From contig JAITRZ010000048.1 of NCBI GenBank assembly GCA_031288185.1, forward strand, positions 31,307 to 95,306: DNA of 64,000 nucleotides. The letters are read 5' to 3'. Positions within the stretch are counted from its first letter, which is position 1. Each line of letters starts with the position of its first letter. The notes beneath the pieces were generated by a model. That model was not told the DNA's origin and made no database searches. It was given only the letters and a program-made list of their open reading frames with translations. The position numbers and the translations under genes are program-made. Shown piece after piece: positions 4,632 through 34,099 of this stretch. This DNA comes from Coriobacteriales bacterium. GTDB lineage: Bacteria; Actinomycetota; Coriobacteriia; Coriobacteriales; UBA8131.

Positions 4632-5252
4632 TTAACTGCTCATAAGGTGATACACCACGTAACCCGCATTTGGATCGAGCGTGCTTGTCCCATCTATCTT
4701 GATGGCATCATGCAGATCCTGGGTATACACGAGCCCACCCACACGGCTCAACCCGTAGGTCACCACAACCGTGGGATCTCCCGGTTTGCGACCTTCAGGA
4801 TAGACCATAAATGCGTCAGCGGTTAGCGCAGTCACATCCGAGCCAAGAGGGGCCACAAAGTGGACATGGAAGCGCATGTTGGTGGCTCCAAGCCCTATGA
4901 CATCGTTCATGAAAGTTCTCGAATACCCGGTAGCTAAGGTCGAAAGATCGGCGAGACTAAAGCGTTTTACAACAAACGCGGTGATGTCTGTCATCCCAGG
5001 CGCCCACCCGGTTGTGAAGTATCCTGCAGCATCCCCTGAACTGAATTTTCCGGCAGCATAGGCTTCATCAAGTACGGAGCGAGTTGCCTGCACAATGTCT
5101 CTAGCCTCGGCGATGTACTGCTCATCCTGCGCCTTCGCTATATAGCCCGTAAGCGCGGGGATGGCTATGGCGAGCAGTATGCCCAGGATAACAATAACAA
5201 CGATAAGCTCTACCAGGGTAAAACCGGTGCGTCTTTGTGAGGTTCCTCGCAC
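4632..5252 (-). CDS. Prepilin-type N-terminal cleavage/methylation-domain protein (pilin-like), locus 1
   Basis: Class III signal MRGTSQRRTG|FTLVELIVVIVILGILLAIAIPALTGYI (G-1, F+1, E+5). GTG at 5252 with GGGAGG 6 nt upstream. The frame stays open upstream to 5282 and, apart from one TGA, up to the ATG at 5606. Confidence 0.7.
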   Translation of the reverse strand: MRGTSQRRTGFTLVELIVVIVILGILLAIAIPALTGYIAKAQDEQYIAEARDIVQATRSVLDEAYAAGKFSSGDAAGYFTTGWAPGMTDITAFVVKRFSLADLSTLATGYSRTFMNDVIGLGATNMRFHVHFVAPLGSDVTALTADAFMVYPEGRKPGDPTVVVTYGLSRVGGLVYTQDLHDAIKIDGTSTLDPNAGYVVYHLMSS

Positions 5253-5369
5253 AGGGAGCCTCCCGTGAGCTCCGCAGAGCAAGGCACCCTGGTGAGGGGA
5301 TGCAGGGGAATCAACATTACTGAGGCGAGGAGGTCGAGGACTGTCTGAGCCGGCACCCCCTGTGCGAGG
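5245..5369. repeat. Perfect 12-bp inverted repeat, CCTCGCACAGGG (5245-5256) / CCCTGTGCGAGG (5358-5369), locus 1
   Basis: Read directly from the sequence. The arms are 101 bp apart. The pilin-proximal arm contains the GTG start candidate. Confidence 0.9.
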
Positions 5370-5372
5370 GGT

Positions 5373-5606
5373 TCAAGCTAAGACAGTGCGGCTTAAACCG
5401 TCACCAGGGGCAGTGCCCTCTGTGCGCGATGCCCACGCAGCCGGTGCTTCTTGTGTTCGAATTTGTGCTATCTCAGATAACAAAAAACCGCTGGGCGCAT
5501 AAGCCTGGGCGGCGTCTTTGGCGCGTACACTCGCGCCCTCATAGATGTTGGTGGATGGGAGAAGAGCTAAGCTACGAGCCCCCCCCCCCGGCGAAATTTG
5601 TGACAT
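5373..5606 (-). CDS. Leader ORF (77 codons) containing a G11 tract, upstream of pilin-like locus 1
   Basis: AAAGGAG-N6-ATG, then TCA CAA ATT TCG CC + G11. It translates as MSQISPGGGARSLALL...SRTVLA and ends at a TGA 3 nt before the inverted-repeat arm. Whether it is translated is unproven. Confidence 0.4.
   Translation of the reverse strand: MSQISPGGGARSLALLPSTNIYEGASVRAKDAAQAYAPSGFLLSEIAQIRTQEAPAAWASRTEGTAPGDGLSRTVLA
5579..5589 (-). repeat. Homopolymer tract, 11 C on plus strand (G11 on the coding strand), locus 1
   Basis: Counted directly: cc at 5579-5580 plus nine c at 5581-5589. Confidence 0.95.
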
Positions 5607-6010
5607 GTTTTACTCCTTTCAGATTGCCTGTTGTGGTGCCTGTCTTGGTGGTGCTTTGTCTTGATGCCTGCCTTACCTGCTTTTTCTGACAGCGCGTAGT
5701 GTAGCACAAGCGCAGGAGTGTGTCACCAGAGGTGTGTCACGCCTGTGCGTGGGTGGAGGCACATGGCGGATATATGCTACACTGGCGCTTTGTGTTGCTG
5801 AACTCTTAAGTGGTAGAACTGGCTTTGGCCTGGGGCCGCCTTATTGGCTGTTTCCCGTTTTTATGTTACAACGTTGCACAGGGCAGGAAGGCGCCACTGG
5901 TATCCTCTGACCATCGGGTGCCTCTCACCAAGGCCGTTGGTTGTGCCCGTTGCATCATGCTGGCCGCACCACAGTTTAAGACCAGGAAGAAATAGAGAAG
6001 GCACAGCATA

Positions 6011-23485: not shown

Positions 23486-25279
23486 CTATTGTTTCCAGTT
23501 AGCGTCAAGTGTACTCCAGTCTGCTCCGCTACTAAAGCTGGCGCCAAAGGTATCTTTATCGCTCGCAGGCACGTTATTGCCGTTGATGATACTTGTTGCC
23601 GTGCGGGTTTGTGCGGTGGCGATATCAAGGAAAGTGCCGGTGAAGACCGTCGCTTTATTGAGCTCAGTATCGCTCAGTTTTGGGAAGGTAAACACAGAAT
23701 TTACCTGAAAGATGAACACACCACTCATGGAACCCCGAGAAAACATCCGCTCACAAAAGTTGCTGTCTACGGTTGTTATGTTTTGGGGCAGGCTAAATAC
23801 ACTATTCATCGTAAAGGCAGTACCGTAGATATGAAACATGCCAAAGCAGAAGGTTTCTCCTGTAGACGTAATGCCCGAAGGGATAGTGAAAATTGAGTTC
23901 ATGTTAAAGGCGTCACCATCGGCATTGGAAAACATCATTGCGCAGAAACCACCTCCTACAGCACCTGTTATCTTTTGGGGCAGGTTAAAGATGCTATTCA
24001 TCGTAAAGGTGTCGCCCCACACGCCACGAAACATACCGCTGCAAAAATTTCCAGGTGCACCTGTTATCTTCTGGGGCAGGTTAAAGCTTGCACCCATGTT
24101 AAAAGCGGCTCCATTACATCCTAAAAACATATTGTTGCAAAAGTAAACTCCCACGGTATCTATGCTCTGGGGAATAGTAAAGGCATCTCCCATCGTAAAG
24201 AAGTTGCCGCCACAACCCCAAAACATCTCATTGGCGTAGTAGTTACCCGCGTTGTTTTCTGAGACATTCATACCCCTTTCAGGAAGGGGGCTTATAAGGG
24301 TGGCAACTTCAACGCTGGTGCCGGGTGTGTTCCGATACGCAAGGGCTCTAAGCCACTGATAGGTGTTTTCATCCCCTGTGACGTTTTCTTCTATCTTTAT
24401 GGTATGCTCACCGGGTGTGCCAACAGAAACAACAATGCCGGCGGTGTTATTGTTGCTCTGATAGGCGACGGGAAACCCGCTATCGACCGACACAAGCCAG
24501 TTGTATTTGCCTTCTGCACTCCCGCTACTAAATAAGCCGACTGTTGGTATGGTATGGGTGGTGCCCGCGGTCTGAACCATAAAGGAGAAAGACTCCAGAG
24601 TGGTGCCATAGGTTAGAGAGTCTTGTGAGGATTCATTTTTCAGGCGAAAACCGAGAAGTTTGTTGCTTTCATCAAAGCGTATGTCTACGATAGACCACTC
24701 AGTTGGGTCAAGATTGAGTTTGGCATATTCCTCTACAATCCCCAGCCAGGTTTCAGCAGTATAAGGAAAGAGGCTTGGTTTGTAAGGGGCAGGGGGATGG
24801 GTGAGGTTTTTGGCTGCGTCTGTGGCATTTGCTGGAGGTTTAACAAGGGCGCTGTTCCCTATAAGCCCATCAGCATATCTTTCTGTTGCCCAGGTTTGTA
24901 GCGCTTTTGCGATGGTGTCAGTGTAGGCTTGTTCTTTTATAGCTCCTGCCTTTTGTATATACCCTGTAAGCGCGGGTATGGCTATGGCGAGTAGGATGCC
25001 CAAAATGACAATGACAACTATCAGTTCTACGAGAGTAAAACCTTTAGGGTTAGTTTGTCTATGTATTTGTGGTGGGTCTTGTGCAGCGCCTCGCACAGGG
25101 GGCATCCGGTGAGTTCCACGGGCCGAGGAGCCCTGTTGATGGATCGAAGGGAATTTGCACGCAACGTTATCGAGGCAACGAGGACGAGGACTGTTTGAGC
25201 TGGCGTTCCCTGTGCGAGGTGCCCACGCGGCGACAGTCCCAGCGAGGTCGTTCTTTCCAAGAGATGAATCCGCATACAA
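23486..25279 (-). CDS. Pilin-like (class III signal) surface protein with a C-terminal array of roughly 26-residue repeats, locus 2
   Basis: NPKG|FTLVELIVVIVILGILLAIAIPALTGYI. About eight repeats of the form FCxxMFxGxxGxAFxMxSxFxLPQxITG span roughly 23644-24247. The open frame has no good start of its own at 25279. It joins the RBS-ATG at 25403 only if the G tract is 11, not 12. Confidence 0.75.
   Translation of the reverse strand: MYADSSLGKNDLAGTVAAWAPRTGNASSNSPRPRCLDNVACKFPSIHQQGSSARGTHRMPPVRGAAQDPPQIHRQTNPKGFTLVELIVVIVILGILLAIAIPALTGYIQKAGAIKEQAYTDTIAKALQTWATERYADGLIGNSALVKPPANATDAAKNLTHPPAPYKPSLFPYTAETWLGIVEEYAKLNLDPTEWSIVDIRFDESNKLLGFRLKNESSQDSLTYGTTLESFSFMVQTAGTTHTIPTVGLFSSGSAEGKYNWLVSVDSGFPVAYQSNNNTAGIVVSVGTPGEHTIKIEENVTGDENTYQWLRALAYRNTPGTSVEVATLISPLPERGMNVSENNAGNYYANEMFWGCGGNFFTMGDAFTIPQSIDTVGVYFCNNMFLGCNGAAFNMGASFNLPQKITGAPGNFCSGMFRGVWGDTFTMNSIFNLPQKITGAVGGGFCAMMFSNADGDAFNMNSIFTIPSGITSTGETFCFGMFHIYGTAFTMNSVFSLPQNITTVDSNFCERMFSRGSMSGVFIFQVNSVFTFPKLSDTELNKATVFTGTFLDIATAQTRTATSIINGNNVPASDKDTFGASFSSGADWSTLDANWKQ
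25089..25219. repeat. Perfect 12-bp inverted repeat, CCTCGCACAGGG (25089-25100) / CCCTGTGCGAGG (25208-25219), locus 2
   Basis: Read directly from the sequence. The arms are 107 bp apart. Confidence 0.9.
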
Positions 25280-25374
25280 AAAACCGCCTGGCGCACGGGC
25301 CTGGGCGGCATCTTTGGCGCGTACATTTGCGCCCTCATAGGTGCTGGTGGACTGAAGGAGAGCTAAGCTATGAG

Positions 25375-25386
25375 CCCCCCCCCCCC
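25375..25386 (-). repeat. Homopolymer tract, 12 C on plus strand (G12 coding strand), locus 2
   Basis: Counted directly: six c at 25375-25380 plus six c at 25381-25386. Confidence 0.95.
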
Positions 25387-25647
25387 GGCGAAATTTGTGA
25401 CATGTTTTACTCCTTTCAGATAGCCTGTCTTACCTGTCTTTTGTGATAGCACGTAGTATAGCACGCCGCAGGGAAGGGTGCATGCGGGACATTTTGTTTT
25501 AGCTTGGAGTATGTCACCTTGTAAATGGGGTACAGAAGAACCCATATTGCAGCACAAAAGAACCGACAGGCTGTGTCGCTGGTCGCTGCCGCGTCACCGT
25601 ACATGCTGTCTTTGCCTAGCGGCATAGGTGGGCGCTATAATGCGAGT

Positions 25648-25863
25648 ATGAATACAAATCAGATCATAGCCATGTGGGCAAGCAACATCATACTTGACTA
25701 TGCGGCGGACAAGGCGGTTCAGGTAGATGAACTGCCACAGCTTGTGGAGAAGCACAAACTCGCGGCTTTTTTGATTGATAACTACGAGTTGTTCCATCTG
25801 TACCCCGATGCAGCAGTGTTCGATGAAATCGATAAGGAAATTGCGAGAGCGGCCGATGGCTGA
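25648..25863 (+). CDS. DUF3791-like small helical protein
   Basis: MNTNQIIAMWASNIILDYAADK... It sits directly upstream of, and overlaps, a DUF3990-like gene, which is a commonly seen pairing (recalled). Confidence 0.6.
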   Translation: MNTNQIIAMWASNIILDYAADKAVQVDELPQLVEKHKLAAFLIDNYELFHLYPDAAVFDEIDKEIARAADG

Positions 25864-26362
25864 ACTGCTTTATCACGGTTCTACGGTTCTGGTAGAGCAT
25901 GCCAACTTATCATTGGCGAATCCTAAACGTGATTTTGGCGTGGGTTTTTATACCACCTCATCTTATGAGCAGGCAGTCCGTTTTAGTAAGATTGTGGCCA
26001 GAAGGTTAGGAAGTGCCCAGGGCGTGGTCAACAGGTATTCCTTTAGGGCGGTCAACGATCTCGTCGTCCTTCGGTTTGAGCGCGCAGATCAGGAGTGGTT
26101 AGACTTTGTACTTTCAAACCGTAGGCATACCGCCGGATCCAAAAACCCTCCAAATGGGGATCTGATTATCGGCCCAGTCGCAAATGACCAGGTGGGGCGC
26201 ACTTTGAATCTCTTGGCAACCGGCGCATACGGTGACCCAAATTCAAACAGGGCAAAAAGTTTCGCCTTGTCCCTACTGATGCCGGAGAATCTGACCGATC
26301 AGTGGGTATTCAAGACTGAAAAGGCCGTACAATGTCTCGAATTTTTGGGAGCTGATGAATAG
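25856..26362 (+). CDS. DUF3990-like protein with a PARP-like H-Y-type ADP-ribosyltransferase signature
   Basis: MAELLYHGS ... DFGVGFYTTSSYEQAVRFS parallels the PARP WHGS ... FGKGIYFAD block. The start overlaps the upstream stop. Confidence 0.65.
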   Translation: MAELLYHGSTVLVEHANLSLANPKRDFGVGFYTTSSYEQAVRFSKIVARRLGSAQGVVNRYSFRAVNDLVVLRFERADQEWLDFVLSNRRHTAGSKNPPNGDLIIGPVANDQVGRTLNLLATGAYGDPNSNRAKSFALSLLMPENLTDQWVFKTEKAVQCLEFLGADE

Positions 26363-26567
26363 GAACTCTGACAATCCCGCTCTTATCAGATTGCTGACCG
26401 CGAATATCATCGGATACCTGGCGGCCGAATATTCGCATGAGCACGGTCTGCGGCTGGCAGAAGGAATGCAGCATGTGCTGGATTCTCCACTCTACCCAAA
26501 GCTCATGGATTCGGCAAATGTCCTTTTCGAGGAAAGCCTGCCTTTGCTCTATGAGCAGATTTGCTAA
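26355..26567 (+). CDS. Second DUF3791-like small helical protein
   Basis: 70 aa. Overlaps the DUF3990-like gene's stop by 8 nt. Confidence 0.55.
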   Translation: MNRNSDNPALIRLLTANIIGYLAAEYSHEHGLRLAEGMQHVLDSPLYPKLMDSANVLFEESLPLLYEQIC

Positions 26568-26633
26568 GAAAGCACCGATGTACTCCCGTCGCGTCACGTG
26601 GAGAGGCAAAGGAAGGTTGTTTGTCCCGGCCCT

Positions 26634-28445
26634 TTAGTTGTCAATCCTCAAGAGAGCCATAAAGGCTTCCTGGGGCACCTCAACATTGCCAATACTTTTC
26701 ATGCGCTTTTTACCGGCTTTCTGCTTTTCCAACAGTTTGCGCTTGCGGGTGATGTCGCCACCATAACATTTGGCTAAAACATCCTTACGCCGGGCTTTGA
26801 CCGTCGTGCGAGCCAGTATGCGGCCACCCACCGCCGCCTGTATTGGCACCTCAAACAGCTGGCGAGGAATAATCTCCTTTAGCTTGGTGGTGAGCGCGTT
26901 GCCGCGCTCATACGCTTTTTCTCTGGGCAAAATGAAACTTAGGGCATCCACCGGCTTGCCGGCCAACAGGATGTCCAAACGCACCAGATCGGCGGGTTCA
27001 TAGCTGCTAAATTCGTAGTCGAGGGTAGCATATCCACGGGTGCGGCTCTTGAGTTGGTCAAAGAAGTCAAGGATCAGCTCGCTTAAGGGTATACGCCATT
27101 TCATTTCCACAGTTTTAGGCGAAAGATACTGCATGGTTTGAAAGACGCCACGACGAGAGATGCTTAACTCCATCACTGCGCCTACATAATCCGGAGGAAT
27201 CAGGATGGTCACGGCCAGGAACGGTTCTTCAATGCGATCAATGCTGCTTGTGTCTGGCAGATCCTGAGGAGTATGCAAAGAAAGCATCGGCCCCTGTGTG
27301 GTATAGACGTGATATTCCACGCTGGGAGAGGTGGCCAGAAGCTCCAGATTGAACTCCCGCTCCAGGCGCTCCTTAACCACCTCCAGGTGTAGAAGTCCCA
27401 GCAGGCCCACCCTAAAGCCAAATCCCAGGGCGTGACTGGTTTCCGGCTCGTAGACCAGCGCCGGATCGTTTAACGTCAACTTGGCCAGGGCCTCGCGCAG
27501 TGCTTCATATTGGTCGCCATCCAGGGGATACAGGCCGGTAAAAACCATCGGCTTGATGTCTCGGTAGCCAGGCAAGGGTTCTCTGGCACCATTTTTGGCC
27601 AGCGTCACGGTGTCGCCAACCTTAACAACGCGAGGATCCTTCAAGCCGGTGATCAAATAGCCAACCTCTCCGGCCGTCAGACTGTCCACAGCCTCATTGG
27701 CTGGACGACGCACTCCCACCTCTTCAACCTGGGTTAGGGCGCCCGTTGCCATCAAACTGGTGCGTTGGCCGCGCACGAGCCGTCCCTCAATCACCCTCAC
27801 CAGGGCTACCACACCACGGTAAGGATCAAAGTAGGAGTCAAAAATCAGAGCTCGTAGTGTCTGTTCAGCAGTACCAGCAGGCGGACGAACGCGCTGGATG
27901 ATCGCCTCCAGGAGTTCAGGAACACCCGCGCCAGTCTTGGCGGAGGCTAAGATGGCATCATCGGCTGGCAAAGCCAATCCTTCTTCAATCTCGGCGCGCG
28001 CCCGTTCTATATCGGCGGCAGGCAGATCAATTTTGTTAATAAGAGGGATAATATCCAGACCGGCGTTAATGGCCAGGGTAGCATTGGCGAGAGTCTGAGC
28101 CTCAACACCCTGGCTGGCATCTACCACCAACACCGCGCCCTCACAAGCAGCCAGCGACCGGGATACCTCGTAGGTAAAATCAACGTGGCCGGGCGTGTCA
28201 ATCAGATTAAGTTGGTAGGTTTGACCATCCAGCGCGGTGTAGAGCACACGCACTGCCTGGGCCTTGATGGTAATACCGCGTTCTCGCTCAATGTCCATGG
28301 AGTCCAGTACCTGTTCAACCATGTCGCGCTCGGACAGCGTATGGGTATATTCCAACACACGATCAGCAAGCGTTGACTTGCCATGGTCAATATGGGCGAT
28401 AATGCAGAAATTACGAATGTGTAAACGATCCACCAGCTGGGCCAA
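26634..28445 (-). CDS. lepA: Translation elongation factor 4 (LepA)
   Basis: [28 protein letters not shown], and the LepA-specific C-terminal domain. Confidence 0.95.
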
Positions 28446-28465
28446 ATTTCCTCAGCCCGTACCGC

Positions 28466-30097
28466 TCATTGTTGGTTAGCGACAGTTGCCTGGACATCTT
28501 GCGCTGCAGAAGGAGCAGGCGAAGCAGTATCAACGTGAGGATCCGTAGTGTCTGTGGACTCAGCGCTTTGATCAAGCGCACCGTCGCTGTGGGCAGCAGT
28601 CTCCGCCTTATCCGTGGCACTGACAGCTTCCTCATGCGCAGGAAGAGTGGCCTCGCCCTGCCCTTTCGCATCCTCAGCGAGCATTGGGCGAGAGCGGCTG
28701 CCCCTTCCGGCATCCGCAACCGCCGCCTCGTCCCTGTCTACGAACCCCTGGCTGGCCTGGGCTTCCTGAGCTGTGGCTTTCTCAGCAGGCTCTCTGTCAA
28801 GGGTTGCTGTAGCACTTTTGTCAACGCCCTCGGCTTCTGCTCCGCGTGCGGCTTCCTGAGTCTCGTGCTTTGCCCTGCCTCCCTTGCCGCCCTCATCCTT
28901 CTTTGTCGCGGCCTCGCCCGTCTGGTGCCCTTTCTTTTTGCCCTTGCCCGTTTTGATCATTGACGGCTCAATCTCAGCCACCGTTATCTCCAGGCCCAGA
29001 TCCTCTGCCGCCTGCTTCATAGACAACGACACCCGGCGTCTACCCGGATCAATATCAATCACCTTTACCTGCACAATATCGCCAACCTTCACAACCTGCG
29101 CCGGCGCCACAACATGCCGCTGCGCCATCTCAGAGATATGCACCAGCCCCTCAATGTTGGCACCCAACTCAACAAAGGCACCAAAGGTGACCAGCTTGGT
29201 AACTCGTCCCTCCAGAAGGGACGAAATGGGATAATTTTTGACAAGCGCTCGCCAGGGATCTTCGGTGGTCTGTTTCAAGCCAAGAGAAATGCGCTCACGA
29301 CTGAGATCGACATCCAATACCTCAACATCAACCTCATCGCCTACTTTAACGACCTCTGAAGGATGGTTAACGTGGTTCCAGGACAATTCTGAGATGTGCA
29401 CCAGGCCGTCGATGCCTCCCAGGTCAACAAAGGTACCAAAATCAACGATAGAGGATACCGTACCCTTCAGGCGCATCCCCTTGGTGAGTTTTTCGAGGAT
29501 CTCGGAACGCTCGTTTTTGCGCCCCTCTTCCAAAACCACCCGCCGTGAGAGCACGACATTATTGCGGTTACGATCCATCTCGATAACGCGAGCCTCAATC
29601 TGTTCGCCGGTAAAGGACTCCAGATCCTTGACCCGACGCAGGTCAACCAGCGAGGCAGGCAAAAAGCCGCGCAGGCCGATGTCCACAATTAAACCGCCCT
29701 TAACCACCTCTATGACCTCGCCCACGACACTTTCCGCCGCGTTGAACTTCTGCTCTACATCAATCCAGGCCCGCTCATACTCAGCGCGCCTCTTTGAGAG
29801 GATCAGTCGCCCGTCCTTGTCCTCCTTGAGCAACACCAGTGCCTCTATTTTATCACCTAAGGTAACAATATCGGCTGAGCCGGCATCTTTGCGTATTGAC
29901 AACTCGCGAAGCGGTATAACGCCTTCTGACTTAAAGCCGATGTCTACAAGCACCTCATCACGCTCTATATTGACAACCGTACCCTCAACCAGATCACCAT
30001 CGTCAAAATCAGTGATGGTGCTTTCGATCATTTCGCTGAAGGCAGCATCGTCAATGTCATCCAACTCGATAACTGACGTGTTTACAATCTCGCTCAA
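28466..30097 (-). CDS. rpsA: 30S ribosomal protein S1 with a roughly 170-aa low-complexity C-terminal tail
   Basis: Four S1 (OB-fold) repeats (GxVxxxxxxGxxVDxG patterns), followed by an A/E/K/T-rich tail. Confidence 0.9.
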   Translation of the reverse strand: MSEIVNTSVIELDDIDDAAFSEMIESTITDFDDGDLVEGTVVNIERDEVLVDIGFKSEGVIPLRELSIRKDAGSADIVTLGDKIEALVLLKEDKDGRLILSKRRAEYERAWIDVEQKFNAAESVVGEVIEVVKGGLIVDIGLRGFLPASLVDLRRVKDLESFTGEQIEARVIEMDRNRNNVVLSRRVVLEEGRKNERSEILEKLTKGMRLKGTVSSIVDFGTFVDLGGIDGLVHISELSWNHVNHPSEVVKVGDEVDVEVLDVDLSRERISLGLKQTTEDPWRALVKNYPISSLLEGRVTKLVTFGAFVELGANIEGLVHISEMAQRHVVAPAQVVKVGDIVQVKVIDIDPGRRRVSLSMKQAAEDLGLEITVAEIEPSMIKTGKGKKKGHQTGEAATKKDEGGKGGRAKHETQEAARGAEAEGVDKSATATLDREPAEKATAQEAQASQGFVDRDEAAVADAGRGSRSRPMLAEDAKGQGEATLPAHEEAVSATDKAETAAHSDGALDQSAESTDTTDPHVDTASPAPSAAQDVQATVANQQ

Positions 30098-30217
30098 GGG
30101 TAGCCCCTCTCAATGCCGGGGCCCCACGTCTCATGCTTCTTGTCTAGGTCTTGCGCTTTACAAACATGTCGGGGCCAATATGAACAGACGGTACGCCTTT
30201 TGCGCACACTTAAGAAG

Positions 30218-30246
30218 AGTATAGAGCTTGTGGCGTTTTAGTACAA
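30218..30246 (-). promoter_or_regulatory. Candidate rpsA promoter with an AT-rich upstream element
   Basis: The minus strand reads TTGTAC (30246-30241), a 17-nt spacer, then TATACT (30223-30218). An unusually AT-rich 50 bp lies just upstream (30250-30300). Confidence 0.45.
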
Positions 30247-30493
30247 GCAAATTTTCGAGAAATAGATATAGGTAAATAATTTAGCTATATTGAAGGAAAG
30301 AGCCTCGCTACATGACAAGAGGTTGTGAACAGACAGTGCGAAAACCAATTGTCAAATGCCGAACCGTCTGCCATCCCCTTGTGCCTTGGGGCCGATGAAA
30401 AGGTCAGTCGTGACGGTAGCGGCGCTTCCCTCCTTTCGCAGGAATCACGGGCGATGCAGGTGGGTGGGTGGTTTTGAGCCGCAGTTTTCCTAC

Positions 30494-32155
30494 CTATGAC
30501 AAATCCATGCGAAAAGCGGGGCGGACACCAAACCCGTTGAGCGCATTGTAGTTAGCGGCCAAGCCCGTAGTACCAAGAACCGCAATGACGCTGGAAGCGT
30601 CACCGCGCGGAGAGCGGAGCCAGTATTGAAAGAGAGTGTAAGGGTTTACCCCGGAGGTCTTTCGTGCGTTGGCATCAGCAAAGAGGACAACGCTTGAGCC
30701 GTAGAGGTTCTTGGTGAGATCCATGCTTGCGGCATCGGTGGCAGGGTAGTCCAGCGCGCGAAACACCTCTTCCTGGCTGAGAAAGAACAGCTTCTGGTTG
30801 GTGAGTTCATAGTAGCCGTTGTGTCCGCTGTCAGAGGCACCTCCTGTCTTATAGGGCGCTGTGCGTGCGTCACTAAAGCCTATTCTTGTATAGAGGGTGG
30901 TATCGAGTATCTTTGCCTTGATGTCTGTGAGGTTGTCATAGCTGTAGGCATAGGTGTTGCTATTGAGGGACGCTCTGAGCGTGCTGCCATCCCAGCGGAT
31001 GTCGGTATCCCAGTTGGTGCTGGGATAGTTGATTGATTTGGCATCTATGATGTGTTCTGCGATGACCAGGACATCAGCGTCGCTTTCCTTGTGTAAGATA
31101 CGCCAGTCATAGCCGTTGGCGGCAAAGGTGTCGCCACGCTTCAGGTTCTTGGAGGGCTGGCGGCTCGCCTGAACATCAAAGGTTATGGTGTAGGAATCTG
31201 CGGTGAGAGTGGCCATGCCGGTGGCGCCTGCCGGGATGGACACAGAGGCTGAGGCACCTGATGGTATCAGTGCAGCGCCGGTTGAGCCCGCGTTAAGCTG
31301 CCAGCCTCCTGCAGGAGGTTCACTGGCCGTGAAGTAGCGCACTGTCGGGTATCCCGCAGGGCTCGTGAGGCTGATAATATGGCTCAGGGAGGTCAGATTA
31401 GAGCCGCCTTCACTGTAGAAAAGGTCATAGGGCATCTCCCCGTAGTCTGCAAAGTCACTTATGTCCTTTGTGTTTATGATGCGCAGGCTCAAGAGTTTGT
31501 TTTTGCTATCAAAGGCAACATTCACCAGTCTCCAGTCACCCGTGCGCAGATCTAACTTTGAGTACGAGGCGACAATACCCTCCCAGCTCTCTTCATCTGT
31601 CGTACCACCGTAGGAGGCAGGGTCAACCGGGTCAGAGGCATTTTCCAAGGGGTCAGCGGCATCAGGAACTACTAGGGCTATCTGTCCTATGAGGTTTTGT
31701 GCCAGTCTCTCTGCGGCCCAGGTTTGGATGGCTTTAACAGAGGTGTTGAGGTCTGCTTCTTTTTTTACGCTTCCTGCTTTTCCTATGTATCCCGTAAGGG
31801 CAGGTATGGCTATAGCAAGGAGGATACCTAAGATAACTATCACTACGATAAGTTCTACTAAGGTAAAACCTTCAGGGTGAGCTATCCTGCGGGTGTATGG
31901 AGGGTCTTGTGTAGCCCCTCGCACAGGGAACGTCCGGTGAGTTCCGCAGACCGAGGAGCCAGGTTGTGGGGCCGCAGGATAGGTAGAGCTACCAAGGCGA
32001 CGAGGTCGCAGAGTGTTTGAGTCGGCATCCCCTGTGTGAGGAGCCCACGCTAAGACGGTGCGGCTTAAACCGGCACCAGGGGCAGTTCTCCCTGTGCGTG
32101 GGGCCCACGCGGCCAGTGCTTCTTGTGTTCCCATTTGTGCTATCTCAGATAACAA
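30494..32155 (-). CDS. Pilin-like (class III signal) surface protein with a DUF6273-like C-terminal domain, locus 3
   Basis: HPEG|FTLVELIVVIVILGILLAIAIPALTGYI. The N-terminal roughly 170 aa after the signal are homologous to locus 2. The C-terminus (WRILHKE...LFFLSQEEV...YWLRSPRG...GVRPAFRMDL) resembles DUF6273 (recalled). The open frame joins the RBS-ATG at 32279 only if the G tract is 11. Confidence 0.75.
   Translation of the reverse strand: MLSEIAQMGTQEALAAWAPRTGRTAPGAGLSRTVLAWAPHTGDADSNTLRPRRLGSSTYPAAPQPGSSVCGTHRTFPVRGATQDPPYTRRIAHPEGFTLVELIVVIVILGILLAIAIPALTGYIGKAGSVKKEADLNTSVKAIQTWAAERLAQNLIGQIALVVPDAADPLENASDPVDPASYGGTTDEESWEGIVASYSKLDLRTGDWRLVNVAFDSKNKLLSLRIINTKDISDFADYGEMPYDLFYSEGGSNLTSLSHIISLTSPAGYPTVRYFTASEPPAGGWQLNAGSTGAALIPSGASASVSIPAGATGMATLTADSYTITFDVQASRQPSKNLKRGDTFAANGYDWRILHKESDADVLVIAEHIIDAKSINYPSTNWDTDIRWDGSTLRASLNSNTYAYSYDNLTDIKAKILDTTLYTRIGFSDARTAPYKTGGASDSGHNGYYELTNQKLFFLSQEEVFRALDYPATDAASMDLTKNLYGSSVVLFADANARKTSGVNPYTLFQYWLRSPRGDASSVIAVLGTTGLAANYNALNGFGVRPAFRMDLS
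31917..32101. repeat. Inverted repeat set at locus 3: CCTCGCACAGGG (31917-31928) versus CCCTGTGTGAGG (32030-32041) and CCCTGTGCGTGG (32090-32101)
   Basis: Read directly from the sequence. Each distal arm has one mismatch, and the upstream unit is duplicated. Confidence 0.85.
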
Positions 32156-32250
32156 AAAACCGCCTGGCGCACGGGCCTGGGCGGCGTCTTTGGCGCGTAC
32201 ACTCGCGCCCTCATAGGTGTTAGTGGATGGGAGAAGAGCGAAGCTATGAG

Positions 32251-32262
32251 CCCCCCCCCCCC
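32251..32262 (-). repeat. Homopolymer tract, 12 C on plus strand (G12 coding strand), locus 3
   Basis: Counted directly: ten c at 32251-32260 plus two c at 32261-32262. Confidence 0.95.
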
Positions 32263-32686
32263 GGCGAAATTTGTGACATGATTTGCTCCTTTCAGATTAA
32301 CTGTTTTGATGTCTGTTTTGGTAATGCGTGTCTTAGTGGTGCCTGTCTTGGTGCCTATCTTGCCTGTCTTTTGCGGCAGCACGCAGTGTAGCACAGGCGT
32401 GGGCAAAAGGACACAAGCGCCTAGGGACGTGTCCCACGCGACACAAGGCAAAGAGATGCGCACAGGGAAGCGGCACACCGACGGGGAGAAGCATGCGAGG
32501 GGGGGGCGGTCGCCTGTGTTGCAAGGTTGTCAGCCCTGCCAGAGGAGCGCACGCCCTGTTTTTGATGATGCCAACAACAAGGGCCGGATACAGAGCGCCG
32601 CCTTGGGGAAGTTATTTTTAAGTACCATTCAAACGGGCCGGTTTTGCCCCTCGCGTGACAGTTCCCCAAGGCGACTGCGCGGCTAC

Positions 32687-34099
32687 TTAAATACCAAGCA
32701 CTCCTACAATGAAGGGAACCCAAAGGGCAATGAGTAGTATCAGCGCGGCGGCCGGCACAATGCCGGTCTTGAACATGTCGCCAAACCTATAATAGCCTTC
32801 CTGATAGGTCAGCATAACAACCGGGTTGACGGGCAATAGCATATTGCCAGCAACAACTATCGCCAAAGAGATGGTTGGCACGGCGGGCGAGACACCAAAG
32901 CCGGCGCAGAGGGTGATAAAGATAGGAATGAAGATGCCAAGGATCGCCACGCCTATCGGGCAGATGGTGTGCAGGATATAGACCAGGGTCATCAAAACAA
33001 TAACGGAGCCGACGAAGCCCAGTGAGGTCACGCCGCTGTCCATAAAGACATCGGCCATCCACTGCGCGCCGCCGGTTTCCTGCACCACATTGCCCAGCGT
33101 CATAATAGCTCCACACATAATGACGATGCCCCAGGGCACGGCGTTTTGGAATTCCTTCCAGGTGAGCAGGTCGATCCCCGGCAAAAACATCACCGTTAGA
33201 CCAAGGAGCGCCACGGCGCTGACATTTAACACGGGTATCCAGTTGCTCAGTATCCACAACACGATGAGCAAAACGATCATCAGCAGGGCCTTTATGTCGT
33301 AGACAGAAACCTTCTTTGCCGCTGAGGCTTCGGCGCGGATCTCCTCAAAACTGCTTTCCTTGATTGGCTCTGGTTTGAGTATTCTGGTGATGAAAAACCA
33401 GCTGATGGGCGTCAGGATAATCGCCACGGGCAGGCCGATGATCATCCAATCAAAAAAGCTGATGGTCTGTCCGGTTATCTGCTGCATAAGGTTCATCGCG
33501 ACAACGTTGAACGAGCTGCCAGCAGGCGTCGCTATGCCGCCAGTGACGGAGGCCACCGGGATGCCAATCATCAGGCATTTACCTAGATTGGAGTGTCCTG
33601 GCCTGGCATTGGACGCCTTGAGAATGGTCATGGCAAAGCCAAGAAAGAGCACAGTGGTGGGCGAGTCTGACATCACGGTGGACACCAGGGCGGTGGCCGC
33701 CATAAAGCCCAAAACCAGCCTGCGCGTGTTTGTTCCTGTCCAGGTAAGCAGCCGAGCTATTATGCGCACGCCCCATTGGGTCTTTTGCATGACTGCGGGC
33801 AATGCGAATATGGAGATGATAAAGAAGAGCGCGGGGCTGCTAAAGCCGCTAAATGCCGCTCCAAAACTTGTAACCACCCCCAAAAGCGGCAACAAAACAA
33901 GAATCAGCAACGCGATAGCACCAAGGGGCAGGGTGTTTGTCATCCAAAGCATGACCAGAGCAAGCAGCAGGCCCAGGGTCATAATGCCCGCATGACTCAA
34001 GGTCTCCGTTGCAGGTAAAAGCACGGAGGTGACGATGCAGAGCAGTGCCAACACAATTCCAACAAGTCGTTTTTGCGGGGAAACTTCTAACGATTCCAT
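32687..34099 (-). CDS. SLC13/DASS-family anion (di/tricarboxylate or sulfate) permease
   Basis: 470 aa and highly hydrophobic, with the two-fold repeat architecture and GIATPAGSSFN / hairpin-type motifs of the family. Confidence 0.8.
   Translation of the reverse strand: MESLEVSPQKRLVGIVLALLCIVTSVLLPATETLSHAGIMTLGLLLALVMLWMTNTLPLGAIALLILVLLPLLGVVTSFGAAFSGFSSPALFFIISIFALPAVMQKTQWGVRIIARLLTWTGTNTRRLVLGFMAATALVSTVMSDSPTTVLFLGFAMTILKASNARPGHSNLGKCLMIGIPVASVTGGIATPAGSSFNVVAMNLMQQITGQTISFFDWMIIGLPVAIILTPISWFFITRILKPEPIKESSFEEIRAEASAAKKVSVYDIKALLMIVLLIVLWILSNWIPVLNVSAVALLGLTVMFLPGIDLLTWKEFQNAVPWGIVIMCGAIMTLGNVVQETGGAQWMADVFMDSGVTSLGFVGSVIVLMTLVYILHTICPIGVAILGIFIPIFITLCAGFGVSPAVPTISLAIVVAGNMLLPVNPVVMLTYQEGYYRFGDMFKTGIVPAAALILLIALWVPFIVGVLGI

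What the first reader, a model, noticed from the sequence alone, without database searches (positions are those of the whole stretch)
25089..25460. Locus 2: a G12 tract six codons into a well-initiated leader puts a 597-codon pilin-like adhesin out of frame; G11 would fuse them
Seen:
- On the minus strand, AAAGGAG-N6-ATG (ATG at 25403) is followed by TCA CAA ATT TCG CC and then 12 G (plus-strand C run 25375-25386).
- With 12 G the frame reads MSQISPGGGGS and then TAG.
- With 11 G it reads MSQISPGGGAHSLALLQSTSTYEGANVRAKDAAQARAPGGF and continues without a stop into ORF 23486..25279. By coordinate arithmetic the ATG is at mod 3 = 2 and the ORF codons at mod 3 = 1, so a 1-nt deletion joins them.
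- The large ORF has no convincing RBS or start of its own at its upstream end.

Established: homopolymer tracts of about 8 nt or more placed early in an ORF are the classic slipped-strand phase-variation switch for pili and adhesins in Neisseria, Haemophilus, Campylobacter and Helicobacter.

Inference: this is an ON/OFF contingency switch, OFF in this assembly, for a surface protein. I do not recall this arrangement being described for this bacterial group.

Caveat: homopolymer length is the most error-prone feature of many assemblies.
Basis: partly seen in the sequence, partly recalled or inferred. Interest (0 to 1): 0.85.

Follow-up and report, generated by a model that had tools for sequence, protein, structure and literature searches.

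The report
Poly-G on/off switch in pilin genes
A run of 12 G six codons into the true start of a type IV pilin-like gene puts it out of frame; the same cassette sits on all three pilin genes here and on about a dozen in related termite-gut Coriobacteriales, so it is most likely a slipped-strand on/off switch of a known kind in a new setting.

Summary
On the minus strand, AAAGGAG-N6-ATG (25403) is followed by five codons and then G12 (25386-25375). This reads MSQISPGGGGS-TAG. G11 opens the frame through to the pilin motif G|FTLVEL (25042) and on to the stop at 23486.

The window holds three paralogous copies, with G11, G12 and G12, one on each of its only three N_methyl pilin genes. Ten more loci in termite-gut Coriobacteriales MAGs and metagenome contigs have the same plan, with G9 to G15.

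In 11 of the 13 loci, one tract-length class gives an ORF that is open and in frame from the SD-ATG to the pilin. The other two classes stop 4-30 nt after the tract, except that one of them runs 108 nt in window locus 3. The pilin frame has 4 stops in 1036 codons; the other frames have 96 in 2071 (p = 5e-13). Three loci have no alternative start codon.

Two things are new:
- The leader peptides would be 56-131 aa long.
- A conserved hairpin plus U-run sits about 80-150 nt after the tract. It probably terminates transcription when early stops uncouple the ribosome.

Actual switching was not shown, because no reads were available. The closest precedent is the intragenic G-tract of Bifidobacterium breve sortase pili.

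The parts
25455..25463 (-). Predicted extended -10 promoter element TGCTATACT of locus 2
   Evidence: Conserved as TGCTA(C/T)ACT in all three window leaders. Promoter activity is inferred only.
25410..25416 (-). Shine-Dalgarno AAAGGAG, 6 nt before the ATG
   Evidence: Identical in loci 1 and 3. Every related locus has a strong SD before its leader ATG.
25401..25403 (-). Proposed true start codon of the pilin-like gene (ATG)
   Evidence: With G11 the ORF is open from here to 23486.
25375..25386 (-). G12 homopolymer, the proposed slipped-strand switch. It is OFF at 12 or 13 G and ON at 11 or 14 G.
25362..25374 (-). CTCATAGCTTAGC, which supplies TAG stops in both non-productive frames (25370-25368 and 25365-25363)
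   Evidence: G(n)CTCATAGC is also kept in the Gx485_bin20 loci.
25316..25333 (-). Small hairpin H2 (GGCGC-AAATGTAC-GCGCC)
   Evidence: RNAfold. It is absent from more distant loci, so its role is unclear.
25278..25315 (-). Terminator-like element inside the leader-coding region: AAAGA-GCCGCC...GGCGG-U6
   Evidence: RNAfold gives -18.6 kcal/mol. An analogous hairpin plus T5-7 lies 78-147 nt after the tract in 12 of 13 loci, with different stem sequences. Termination itself is inferred.
25043..25277 (-). Variable, weakly constrained part of the long leader peptide coding region. It contains in-frame ATG 25105 and GTG 25096, neither with an SD.
   Evidence: Substitutions are spread evenly over codon positions, yet the frame is stop-free. 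ATG 25105 is the gene caller's start (P0001).
23486..25042 (-). Mature pilin-like protein (518 aa plus stop). It starts at G|FTLVELIVVIVILG and has a beta-sandwich and a C-terminal repeat module.
   Evidence: Pfam N_methyl, homologues, AF2 model.
4632..5706 (-). Locus 1, a paralogous cassette with its pilin gene. ATG 5606, G11 5589-5579, terminator 5519-5482, in-frame TGA at 5375-5373, own SD GGGAGG 5264-5259 plus GTG about 5252, G|FTLVE at 5225.
30494..32393 (-). Locus 3, a paralogous cassette with its pilin gene (C-terminal DUF6273 domain). ATG 32279, G12 32262-32251, terminator 32191-32154, G|FTLVE at 31870. OFF as assembled; G11 fuses.

Best explanation
The gene at 23486-25403 (minus strand) is one of a family of type IV pilin-like genes. 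Its coding sequence starts at the SD-ATG at 25403 and carries a poly-G tract in codons 6-10.

Slipped-strand mispairing during replication changes the tract length. G11 or G14 gives a full-length prepilin. This has a leader of about 120 aa, largely unconstrained and cytoplasmic, which would be cut off at G|FTLVEL by a prepilin peptidase. G12 (as assembled) or G13 ends translation 4-9 nt after the tract.

In the OFF frames the ribosome leaves the mRNA about 40-50 nt before a conserved hairpin plus U6 at 25315-25278. That element can then fold and terminate transcription, so the pilin is silenced at both levels. In the ON frame the translating ribosome runs through it.

The three independently switching copies in this genome would give combinatorial expression of different pilin tip or adhesin modules.

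Shown here: the anatomy, frame conservation, tract diversity and hairpin conservation. Inferred: actual switching, termination, cleavage and adhesion.
For: - Anatomy and in-silico frames.
- The window has three paralogous cassettes, one on each of its only three pilin genes.
- The same plan occurs in L083 (two genes), L097, L084 (two genes), L085, L092, L095 and L100 (two genes), with G9-G15. L087 has it with a 33-aa leader.
- No other pilin locus among 281 pilin motifs in 166 loci has a G run of 8 or more within 600 nt upstream.
- In 11 of 13 loci one length class is open and in frame to G|FTLVE. The other two classes stop within 4-30 nt, except one class in window locus 3, which runs 108 nt.
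- Stop codons: 4 in 1036 codons in the pilin frame against 96 in 2071 elsewhere, p = 5e-13.
- L083a, L083b and L092 have no in-frame ATG, GTG or TTG within 45 codons of the cleavage site.
- Codon-usage score is best in the pilin frame in 13 of 13 loci.
- Paralogs in one genome are in different states. In Nm470_bin152 one is ON and two are OFF. In Gx485_bin20 two are ON and two are OFF.
- The leader core differs by only 7-12% between window paralogs, although 57-73% of third codon positions differ in the adjacent pilin N-terminus.
- A hairpin plus T-run is present in 12 of 13 loci, with unrelated stems such as GCCGCC/GGCGG, GAAGCA/TGCTTC and GCACGG/CCGTGC. This is about 14-fold over the window background.
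- Precedent: the B. breve G-tract pilus switch with polarity in the OFF state (PMC9187656).
- The type IV pilin leader peptide is cytoplasmic and variable in length (PMC10191384).
Against: - No read-level or same-locus population data, so tract-length heterogeneity is unproven. Homopolymers are error-prone in assemblies.
- All four tracts in Gx485_bin20 are exactly 15 G, which is odd for independently slipping tracts.
- The leader between the terminator and the pilin shows no amino-acid constraint: 31 non-synonymous against 8 synonymous changes, spread evenly over codon positions.
- A class III leader of 56-131 aa is longer than any I know of. That comparison rests on my own knowledge.
- Two loci have decoupled. 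Window locus 1 has an in-frame TGA and its own SD-GTG. L084a has stops and its own strong SD-ATG. So fusion is not obligatory for the family.
- Locus 2 does have an in-frame ATG at 25105.
- No prepilin peptidase or pilus machinery lies in the window.
Confidence: 0.66

Rival explanations
1. Phase-variable attenuator only. The pilin is translated from its own start (ATG 25105 or GTG 25096). The SD-ATG-polyG unit is a separate leader ORF. Its frame decides only whether a ribosome covers the terminator and so lets transcription read through. No fusion protein is needed.
For: - The hairpin plus U-run keeps a roughly constant distance from the tract while the distance to the pilin varies from 131 to 380 nt.
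- Window locus 1 and L084a, and probably L127, keep the poly-G leader and terminator although the pilin has its own SD and start and cannot be fused.
- There is no amino-acid constraint on the spacer.
- Ribosome-blocked terminators are an established principle (pyrBI attenuation, from my own knowledge).
Against: - An attenuator does not need the leader ORF to be in frame with the pilin and stop-free all the way to it. Yet this holds in 11 of 13 loci (p = 5e-13).
- Three loci have no start codon between tract and pilin.
- ATG 25105 and GTG 25096 lack an SD, whereas most genes in the window have one.
- L083b has no terminator but keeps the in-frame design.
Confidence: 0.15
2. Assembly or sequencing artefact. 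The real tract is G11 and the gene is simply intact and constitutively expressed. The apparent frameshift is a homopolymer miscall.
For: - Homopolymer length is a known weak point of assemblies.
- The only other assembly of this region (Logan contig L081, 100% identical) stops just before the tract and cannot arbitrate.
- The identical G15 in four Gx485 loci hints at technical influence.
Against: - Out-of-frame states are seen in 8 of 13 loci from several independent assemblies, next to in-frame paralogs in the same genomes.
- Even if this one call is wrong, a G tract of 9-15 kept at the same codon position in paralogs whose synonymous sites are saturated is not explained by error. Such a tract would be hypermutable anyway.
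- Stop codons placed immediately after the tract in both other frames are conserved.
Confidence: 0.08
3. Non-heritable recoding. RNA polymerase slippage or ribosomal frameshifting on the G run yields a fixed fraction of in-frame product from a G12 gene, without DNA-level switching.
For: - Long homopolymers can support transcriptional slippage.
- A hairpin followed by a U-run shares features with slippage stimulators. I saw only the title of Penno et al. 2015 in the reference list of PMC9187656.
- This can coexist with DNA slippage.
Against: - The assembled genomes themselves differ in frame state between paralogs, which is DNA-level variation.
- The hairpin and U-run lie downstream of the OFF-frame stops, so slippage there could not rescue an OFF gene.
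- In the B. breve precedent the cause was replication slippage (PMC9187656).
Confidence: 0.07
4. Decaying pseudogenes. The pilin genes are being lost and the frameshifts are fixed inactivating mutations.
For: Two of the three window copies are out of frame and the third has an in-frame TGA.
Against: - The only lesion in loci 2 and 3 is one base in the tract. About 600 downstream codons remain open.
- The pilin N-terminal domains show strong purifying selection, with changes concentrated at third positions.
- The cassette is conserved across genomes.
Confidence: 0.04

Closest known systems
Intragenic G-tract switch of Bifidobacterium breve UCC2003 sortase-dependent pilus genes bbr_0113 and bbr_1889 (Penno et al. 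2022, PMC9187656)
   Same: - Same phylum.
- A short, well-initiated upstream ORF runs into a G tract.
- A large pilin ORF follows that lacks an SD of its own.
- One base more or less fuses the two ORFs.
- The OFF state is accompanied by reduced downstream transcription.
   Different: - Here the genes are type IV pilin-like, with a class III signal and no LPXTG or Sec signal.
- Several unlinked single-gene copies share one cassette.
- The tract lies in a very long leader peptide that is presumably removed.
- A discrete hairpin plus U-run follows the tract, whereas B. breve shows dispersed, polarity-type termination.
- Switching has been demonstrated in B. breve but not here.
Neisseria pilC poly-G tract in the signal-peptide coding region, and other Neisseria, Haemophilus, Campylobacter and Helicobacter contingency loci
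   Same: A homopolymeric G tract early in the CDS of a pilus-associated surface protein, with ON/OFF frameshifting by slipped-strand mispairing. This comparison rests on my own knowledge; the general literature was listed.
   Different: - PilC is a pilus tip or assembly protein with a Sec signal, not a pilin.
- Those organisms are Gram-negative pathogens.
- No embedded terminator is known there.
- The pilin PilE itself varies by recombination, not by a tract.
Leader-ORF attenuation in which a ribosome physically blocks an intrinsic terminator (E. coli pyrBI leader)
   Same: An SD-initiated ORF reads across a hairpin plus U-run upstream of the regulated coding sequence. Ribosome position decides whether the terminator can form. 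This comparison rests on my own knowledge, and the role here is inferred.
   Different: In pyrBI the signal is a physiological one, UTP-dependent pausing. Here the signal would be a heritable reading-frame state, and in most loci the leader ORF is the gene itself.
Modular type IV pilins, such as Streptococcus sanguinis PilB (PMC8179133)
   Same: A pilin N-terminal module fused to a large extra C-terminal module, which is proposed to give the pilus an adhesive function (abstract seen). The locus 2 and locus 3 proteins are 500-aa-class pilins with different C-terminal modules.
   Different: The modules here are a repeat domain with no PDB match and a DUF6273 domain. They are unrelated to the PilB vWA module. 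Adhesion has not been tested.

Membership tests
Slipped-strand (SSM) translational phase-variable contingency locus | Homopolymeric tract of about 8 nt or more inside the 5' part of the coding sequence | tested here: met
   G12 in codons 6-10 after SD-ATG 25403.
Slipped-strand (SSM) translational phase-variable contingency locus | A change of one repeat unit toggles between a full-length and a truncated ORF | tested here: met
   G11 or G14 gives a 638-aa ORF. G12 gives 11 aa and G13 gives 13 aa. The same holds in 11 of 13 related loci.
Slipped-strand (SSM) translational phase-variable contingency locus | Tract-length polymorphism at the same locus within a population or between strains | tested here: inconclusive
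   Lengths and frame states differ between paralogs: 11/12/12, 9/10/10, 9/9 and 15 four times. No second assembly spans the same tract, because L081 ends before it. No reads were available.
Slipped-strand (SSM) translational phase-variable contingency locus | Heritable, reversible ON/OFF expression | not testable with these tools
   This needs culture or single-cell data.
Type IV pilin (class III signal peptide protein) | N-terminal methylation / cleavage motif G|F-T-L-x-E followed by a hydrophobic helix of about 20 aa | tested here: met
   PF07963, E = 2.7e-8. The motif reads KG|FTLVELIVVIVILGILLAIAIPALTGYI. The AF2 model has a helix at residues 25-78 of P0001.
Type IV pilin (class III signal peptide protein) | Short hydrophilic leader peptide at the extreme N-terminus, ending in Gly or Ala | tested here: inconclusive
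   The leader ends in Gly and is preceded by basic or hydrophilic residues. From ATG 25403 it would be 120 aa, and 56-131 aa across the family (33 aa in L087). From the SD-less ATG 25105 it would be 21 aa. The review states only that the length is variable.
Type IV pilin (class III signal peptide protein) | Prepilin peptidase and pilus assembly genes in the genome | not testable with these tools
   None was found among the 30 long window ORFs scanned with Pfam.
B. breve-type intragenic G-tract pilus switch | Short SD-initiated upstream ORF, then a G tract, then a large pilin ORF without its own SD | tested here: met
   compared with PMC9187656.
B. breve-type intragenic G-tract pilus switch | Sortase-dependent (LPXTG, Sec-signal) pilin in a cluster with its sortase | tested here: not met
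   The protein is a class III-signal pilin. Its neighbours are housekeeping genes and no sortase is present.
Intrinsic (Rho-independent) terminator | G+C-rich hairpin directly followed by a U-run | tested here: met
   The element at 25315-25278 has a GCCGCC/GGCGG stem plus U6, at -18.6 kcal/mol. It was not reported by the generic scan, whose loop limit is 3-8 nt.
Intrinsic (Rho-independent) terminator | Structure rather than sequence conserved among homologous sites | tested here: met
   12 of 13 loci have a hairpin plus T5-7, with differing stems. The strict scan finds 8 in 3.3 kb of leader against 0.17 per kb in the window.
Intrinsic (Rho-independent) terminator | RNA 3' ends or termination activity at the site | not testable with these tools
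   This needs Term-seq, Northern blots or in vitro transcription.

The most novel reading that the evidence does not exclude
Termite-gut Coriobacteriales carry a portable phase-variation cassette: promoter, SD-ATG, poly-G, twin stops and an intrinsic terminator. It is written into the 5' coding region of every type IV pilin gene.

In this reading the intragenic terminator turns the reading-frame state into a transcriptional ON/OFF decision, a hard-wired form of polarity. The resulting prepilins would carry leader peptides of 56-131 aa, the longest class III leaders I know of. The leaders would exist mainly to house this nucleic-acid device rather than for any protein function.
Probability: 0.35. 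Interest if true: 0.72.

Novelty: new variant of a known kind. Interest (0 to 1): 0.58.

Why it matters
Phase variation by homopolymer slippage is textbook for pathogens. It has been shown for only a few commensal Actinomycetota, namely Bifidobacterium sortase pili.

Here the same logic appears on type IV pilin genes of Coriobacteriia from lower-termite guts. It takes the form of a multi-copy cassette that could let one cell line sample different pilus tip or adhesin modules.

If the two inferred twists hold, they bear on two open points:
- how far a class III signal peptide can be extended at its N-terminus and still be processed;
- whether bacteria build defined terminators into coding regions so that a frameshifted gene is also transcriptionally silent.

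There is also a practical consequence for annotation. Gene callers split or truncate these genes. For example, P0001 starts at an SD-less internal ATG. These genes should be flagged as phase-variable rather than as pseudogenes.

Tried and rejected
**Known RNA family.** I first suspected a riboswitch or sRNA leader, because of the three hairpins, the U-run and a CGCACAGGG motif. Rfam at gathering threshold found only three tRNAs in the window. E-value scans of loci 2 and 3 gave only chance hits. I dropped the idea once the frame conservation appeared.

**Exact-pattern scans.** Scans for the H2 hairpin region (TATGAGGGCGCNNNNGTACGCGCCAAAGA) found nothing in genome contigs or metagenome contigs.

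**Metagenome pilin search.** It returned 80 loci, none with the leader or a G tract upstream.

**Contig look-ups.** The look-up of encoding contigs failed for P0002, P0009 and P0001. So the DNA of the two closest leader-bearing homologues was never seen, and their state is inferred from the protein sequences only.
- P0002 begins MPGGGAHSLALL..., in frame with the pilin.
- P0009 has TQISGWGG, an interrupted tract, and is also in frame.

**Synteny route through ribosomal protein S1.** This gave the Logan contig L081, identical to the window but ending at ...ATGTCACAAATT. It probably breaks at the three-copy repeat, so it says nothing about tract length. A relative with 84% identical S1 (L082) has no pilin at that position.

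**Codon-position test.** This initially argued against coding for the spacer. I now read it as translated but unconstrained.

**MAFFT alignment of the terminators (A4).** It was out of register between groups, so I did not run the count of structure pairs on it. I used per-locus folds and a background scan instead.

**Function of the C-terminal module.** Pfam at E = 10 found nothing credible. The AF2 model (pLDDT 70) had no PDB match better than E = 0.14, with only weak CBM or jelly-roll-like hits. The adhesin label therefore stays an inference.

**Pilus machinery.** None was found in the window.
Full report
**1. The observation**

On the minus strand the sequence reads ...TGCTATACT (25463-25455)...CTGAAAGGAGTAAAAC ATG TCA CAA ATT TCG CCG GGG GGG GGG GGC TCA TAG.
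- The SD AAAGGAG lies at 25416-25410 and the ATG at 25403-25401.
- The G12 run lies at 25386-25375 and the TAG at 25370-25368.
- Removing one G gives a 638-codon ORF that runs without a stop to 23486.
- The 597-aa ORF listed from TTG 25279 carries a Pfam N_methyl motif (PF07963, E = 2.7e-8) at residues 79-101. The motif reads KG|FTLVELIVVIVILGILLAIAIPALTGYI, starting at 25042.

**2. It is one of three copies**

The window (55.6% GC) has only three G or C runs of 11 or more: C11 at 5579-5589, C12 at 25375-25386 and C12 at 32251-32262.
- Each sits in the same leader of about 190-240 nt, upstream of one of the only three pilin motifs in the window.
- From the SD to the U-run the leaders differ by only 7-12%. 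In the adjacent, strongly conserved pilin N-terminus, 57-73% of third codon positions differ.
- So either the leader core is held by selection at the nucleotide level, or it is homogenised between copies.

**3. First impression: an RNA leader**

RNAfold predicts three hairpins after the ATG:
- the G run paired with a pyrimidine run;
- a small GGCGC/GCGCC hairpin;
- AAAGA-GCCGCC...GGCGG-UUUUUU, which looks like an intrinsic terminator.

Between this element and the pilin, substitutions are spread evenly over codon positions. Loci 1 and 3, for example, differ at 14, 16 and 19 sites in positions 1, 2 and 3, with 31 non-synonymous and 8 synonymous changed codons. The pilin N-terminus shows the usual third-position excess.

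A conserved GTG (P-V-R-G) lies 9-18 codons before G|F, and locus 1 has GGGAGG in front of it. A gene caller started the locus 2 protein at ATG 25105 (P0001). This suggested a non-coding attenuator. Rfam found nothing.

**4. Relatives change the picture**

Protein homologues are few, and those that carry an organism name come from Coriobacteriales MAGs.
- P0002 begins MPGGGAHSLALLPSTNTYEGAHVRAKD... and continues into the pilin.
- DNA for P0010, P0005 and P0011 and a pilin-based scan of GTDB genomes yielded ten more loci with the same plan. These are L083 (two genes), L097, L084 (two genes), L085, L092, L095 and L100 (two genes).
- Each has a strong SD and an ATG, then 5-12 codons of unrelated sequence, then G9-G15.
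- L087 is a short version: 22 codons, G9, six codons, then G|FTLVE, in frame as assembled.
- L092, L095, L097 and L100 come from Coriobacteriales MAGs Gx485_bin20 and Nm470_bin152. L083 appears to be the same 52,204-nt contig as L097. L084 and L085 are JGI metagenome contigs with no organism label. L087 and L127 are binned as Family XIII.
- Gx485 and Nm470 are gut samples of the lower termites Glyptotermes sp. and Neotermes meruensis (PMC11707648).
- Among 281 pilin motifs in 166 fetched loci, no other pilin has a G run of 8 or more within 600 nt upstream.

**5. The frame test**

For each of the 13 loci I translated from the leader ATG with tract lengths from n-2 to n+2.
- In 11 loci exactly one length class (mod 3) is open and in frame right through to G|FTLVE.
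- The other two classes stop 4-30 nt after the tract. The one exception is a class in window locus 3, which runs 108 nt.
- The motif G(n)CTCATAGCTTAGC supplies TAG in both other frames. Its core G(n)CTCATAGC is shared by the window and the Gx485 loci.
- Between tract and pilin, the pilin frame has 4 stops in 1036 codons. The other two frames have 96 in 2071 (Fisher p = 5e-13). Leaving out the first 36 nt gives 2 in 880 against 69 in 1759 (p = 2e-10).
- L083a, L083b and L092 have no in-frame ATG, GTG or TTG within 45 codons of the cleavage site.
- A codon-usage score is best in the pilin frame in 13 of 13 loci. It is only about 0 bits per codon, against 0.16-0.36 for real genes.

The spacers of the different groups have very different lengths (131-380 nt). 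The open frame has therefore been kept in several lineages. The stretch is translated, even though its amino-acid sequence hardly matters.

**6. States as assembled**
- ON: L083a (G9), L092 (G15), L100b (G15) and L087 (G9).
- OFF: window loci 2 and 3 (G12), L083b and L097 (G10), L084b (G9), L085, L095 and L100a (G15).
- Window locus 1 (G11) is in frame but has a TGA at 5375-5373. It also has its own GGGAGG-N6-GTG.
- L084a has stops in all frames and its own strong SD-ATG. L127 also has its own strong SD-ATG far downstream of its G9 tract.

So paralogs in one genome are in mixed states, as expected for a contingency family. A few copies have escaped the fusion while keeping the leader.

**7. 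The embedded terminator**

A hairpin followed by T5-7 lies 78-110 nt after the tract (147 nt in L097) in 12 of 13 loci. L083b lacks it.
- The stems are unrelated between groups: GCCGCC/GGCGG, GAAGCA/TGCTTC and GCACGG/CCGTGC.
- The inner stems in the Gx485 paralogs differ in a compensatory way: CGTC/GACG, GGTC/GGCC and TGTC/GACG.
- A strict scan finds 8 such elements in 3.3 kb of leader, against 0.17 per kb of strand in the window.
- The tool's generic scan missed it, because the loop is longer than 8 nt.
- The OFF-frame stops lie about 40-50 nt upstream of the hairpin.

My reading is as follows. After an early stop the RNA is ribosome-free, the hairpin forms and transcription ends. In the ON frame the ribosome runs through it. 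This is inferred. In B. breve the OFF state shows polarity with dispersed 3' ends and no defined terminator (PMC9187656).

**8. What the protein is**

The mature product (518 aa) has three parts: the pilin N-terminal helix, a beta-sandwich (P0001 residues 137-240) and a confidently modelled C-terminal domain of roughly 25-33-aa F-T-M-N-S-x-F-N-L-P-Q-x-I-T repeats.
- No Pfam family was found for the repeat domain, and no PDB match better than E = 0.14.
- Locus 3 has a different module (DUF6273), and locus 1 is a short 216-aa pilin.
- "Modular pilin, possibly adhesive" is reasonable by analogy with S. sanguinis PilB (PMC8179133). It is untested.
- The window encodes no pilus machinery or prepilin peptidase.
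- The type IV pilin leader peptide stays in the cytoplasm and is cut by a peptidase acting at the cytoplasmic face (PMC10191384). A long N-terminal extension is therefore topologically possible, but 56-131 aa is far beyond the usual length.

**9. Limits**
- No reads were available, and no second assembly spans the tract. L081 is identical but ends just before it. Length heterogeneity at this locus is therefore unproven.
- The identical G15 in four loci of one MAG is unexplained.
- The DNA of P0002 and P0009 could not be fetched.

**10. Verdict**

This is a slipped-strand poly-G contingency switch at the true 5' end of a type IV pilin-like gene, and it is OFF as assembled.

It belongs to a known kind of mechanism. 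The closest precedent is in the same phylum, the B. breve sortase pili. A literature search found no description for Coriobacteriia or for type IV pilins of this type.

The family-wide cassette, the very long leader and the conserved intragenic terminator make it a new variant that is worth testing.

Noticed in passing
window 25420-25447 (locus 2), about 5620-5690 (locus 1), about 32295-32380 (locus 3), minus strand: The 5' UTR between the predicted -10 and the SD is made of CA-rich units (AAGACAGGCA/ACCAC). Locus 2 has about 2 copies and loci 1 and 3 have 5-8, so UTR length varies from about 40 to 95 nt. This could be a translational enhancer or a protein-binding array. It is unexplained.
   Followed up: no
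window 5375-5450 and 32050-32130 (minus strand): Loci 1 and 3 carry an internal in-frame duplication of about 60 nt in the spacer (AWAPRTG...AWAPHTG; the motif GCGTGGGCNCCNCGCACAGGG occurs twice). Locus 2 lacks 54 nt here. All indels between the copies net to multiples of 3.
   Followed up: partly
L092, L095, L100 (two loci), all from MAG Gx485_bin20; also L085: All five tracts are exactly G15, although the pre-tract lengths differ (31-33 nt), so two loci are ON and three are OFF. Equal lengths are unexpected for independently slipping tracts. Possible causes are a length optimum, gene conversion or a sequencing or assembly effect.
   Followed up: no
L081 (Logan SRR14710895), equal to window 30524..25392: An independent short-read assembly is 100% identical to the window but ends at ...ATGTCACAAATT, 5 nt before the tract. 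The break probably falls at the three-copy repeat. The run is a source of reads for checking tract length.
   Followed up: partly
window 25564-25578, minus strand: A terminator-like hairpin (CGACACAGCCTGTCG plus GTTCTTTTGT) lies just upstream of the locus 2 promoter. It may insulate the cassette from upstream transcription.
   Followed up: no
window 32499-32506, plus strand: A G8 run (C8 on the minus strand) lies about 105 nt upstream of the locus 3 promoter, in the gap before the transporter gene 32687-34099.
   Followed up: no
L127 703-711 (MAG Im510_bin135) and L084 2662-2670: These are decoupled versions of the cassette. G9 plus twin stops plus a terminator lie 300-465 nt upstream of a pilin that has its own strong SD-ATG. 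They may be relics, or pure attenuators.
   Followed up: partly
L036 4422-4437; L102 1853-1861; L134 4100-4110; L151 80-89; L155 2220-2231: Other G or C runs of 9-16 occur near pilin genes in unrelated metagenome or MAG loci (Lachnospiraceae, Oscillospiraceae, Ruminococcus, Phycisphaerae and an unlabelled metagenome contig). They were not examined and could be independent cases of the same strategy.
   Followed up: no
window 23486-24300 (locus 2 C-terminal domain): About 25-33-aa repeats (F-C-x-x-M-F...F-T-M-N-S-x-F-N-L-P-Q-x-I-T) were modelled by AF2 at pLDDT 80-95. They have no Pfam family and no PDB fold match, and only about two dozen homologues among 5.8 billion proteins. This may be an uncharacterised repeat fold.
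   Followed up: partly
window 28466-30097, with L082: In a relative whose S1 protein is 84% identical, the S1-LepA block is preceded by TetR and molybdopterin-enzyme genes instead of the locus 3 pilin. The pilin cassettes therefore appear to be lineage-specific single-gene insertions among housekeeping genes.
   Followed up: partly
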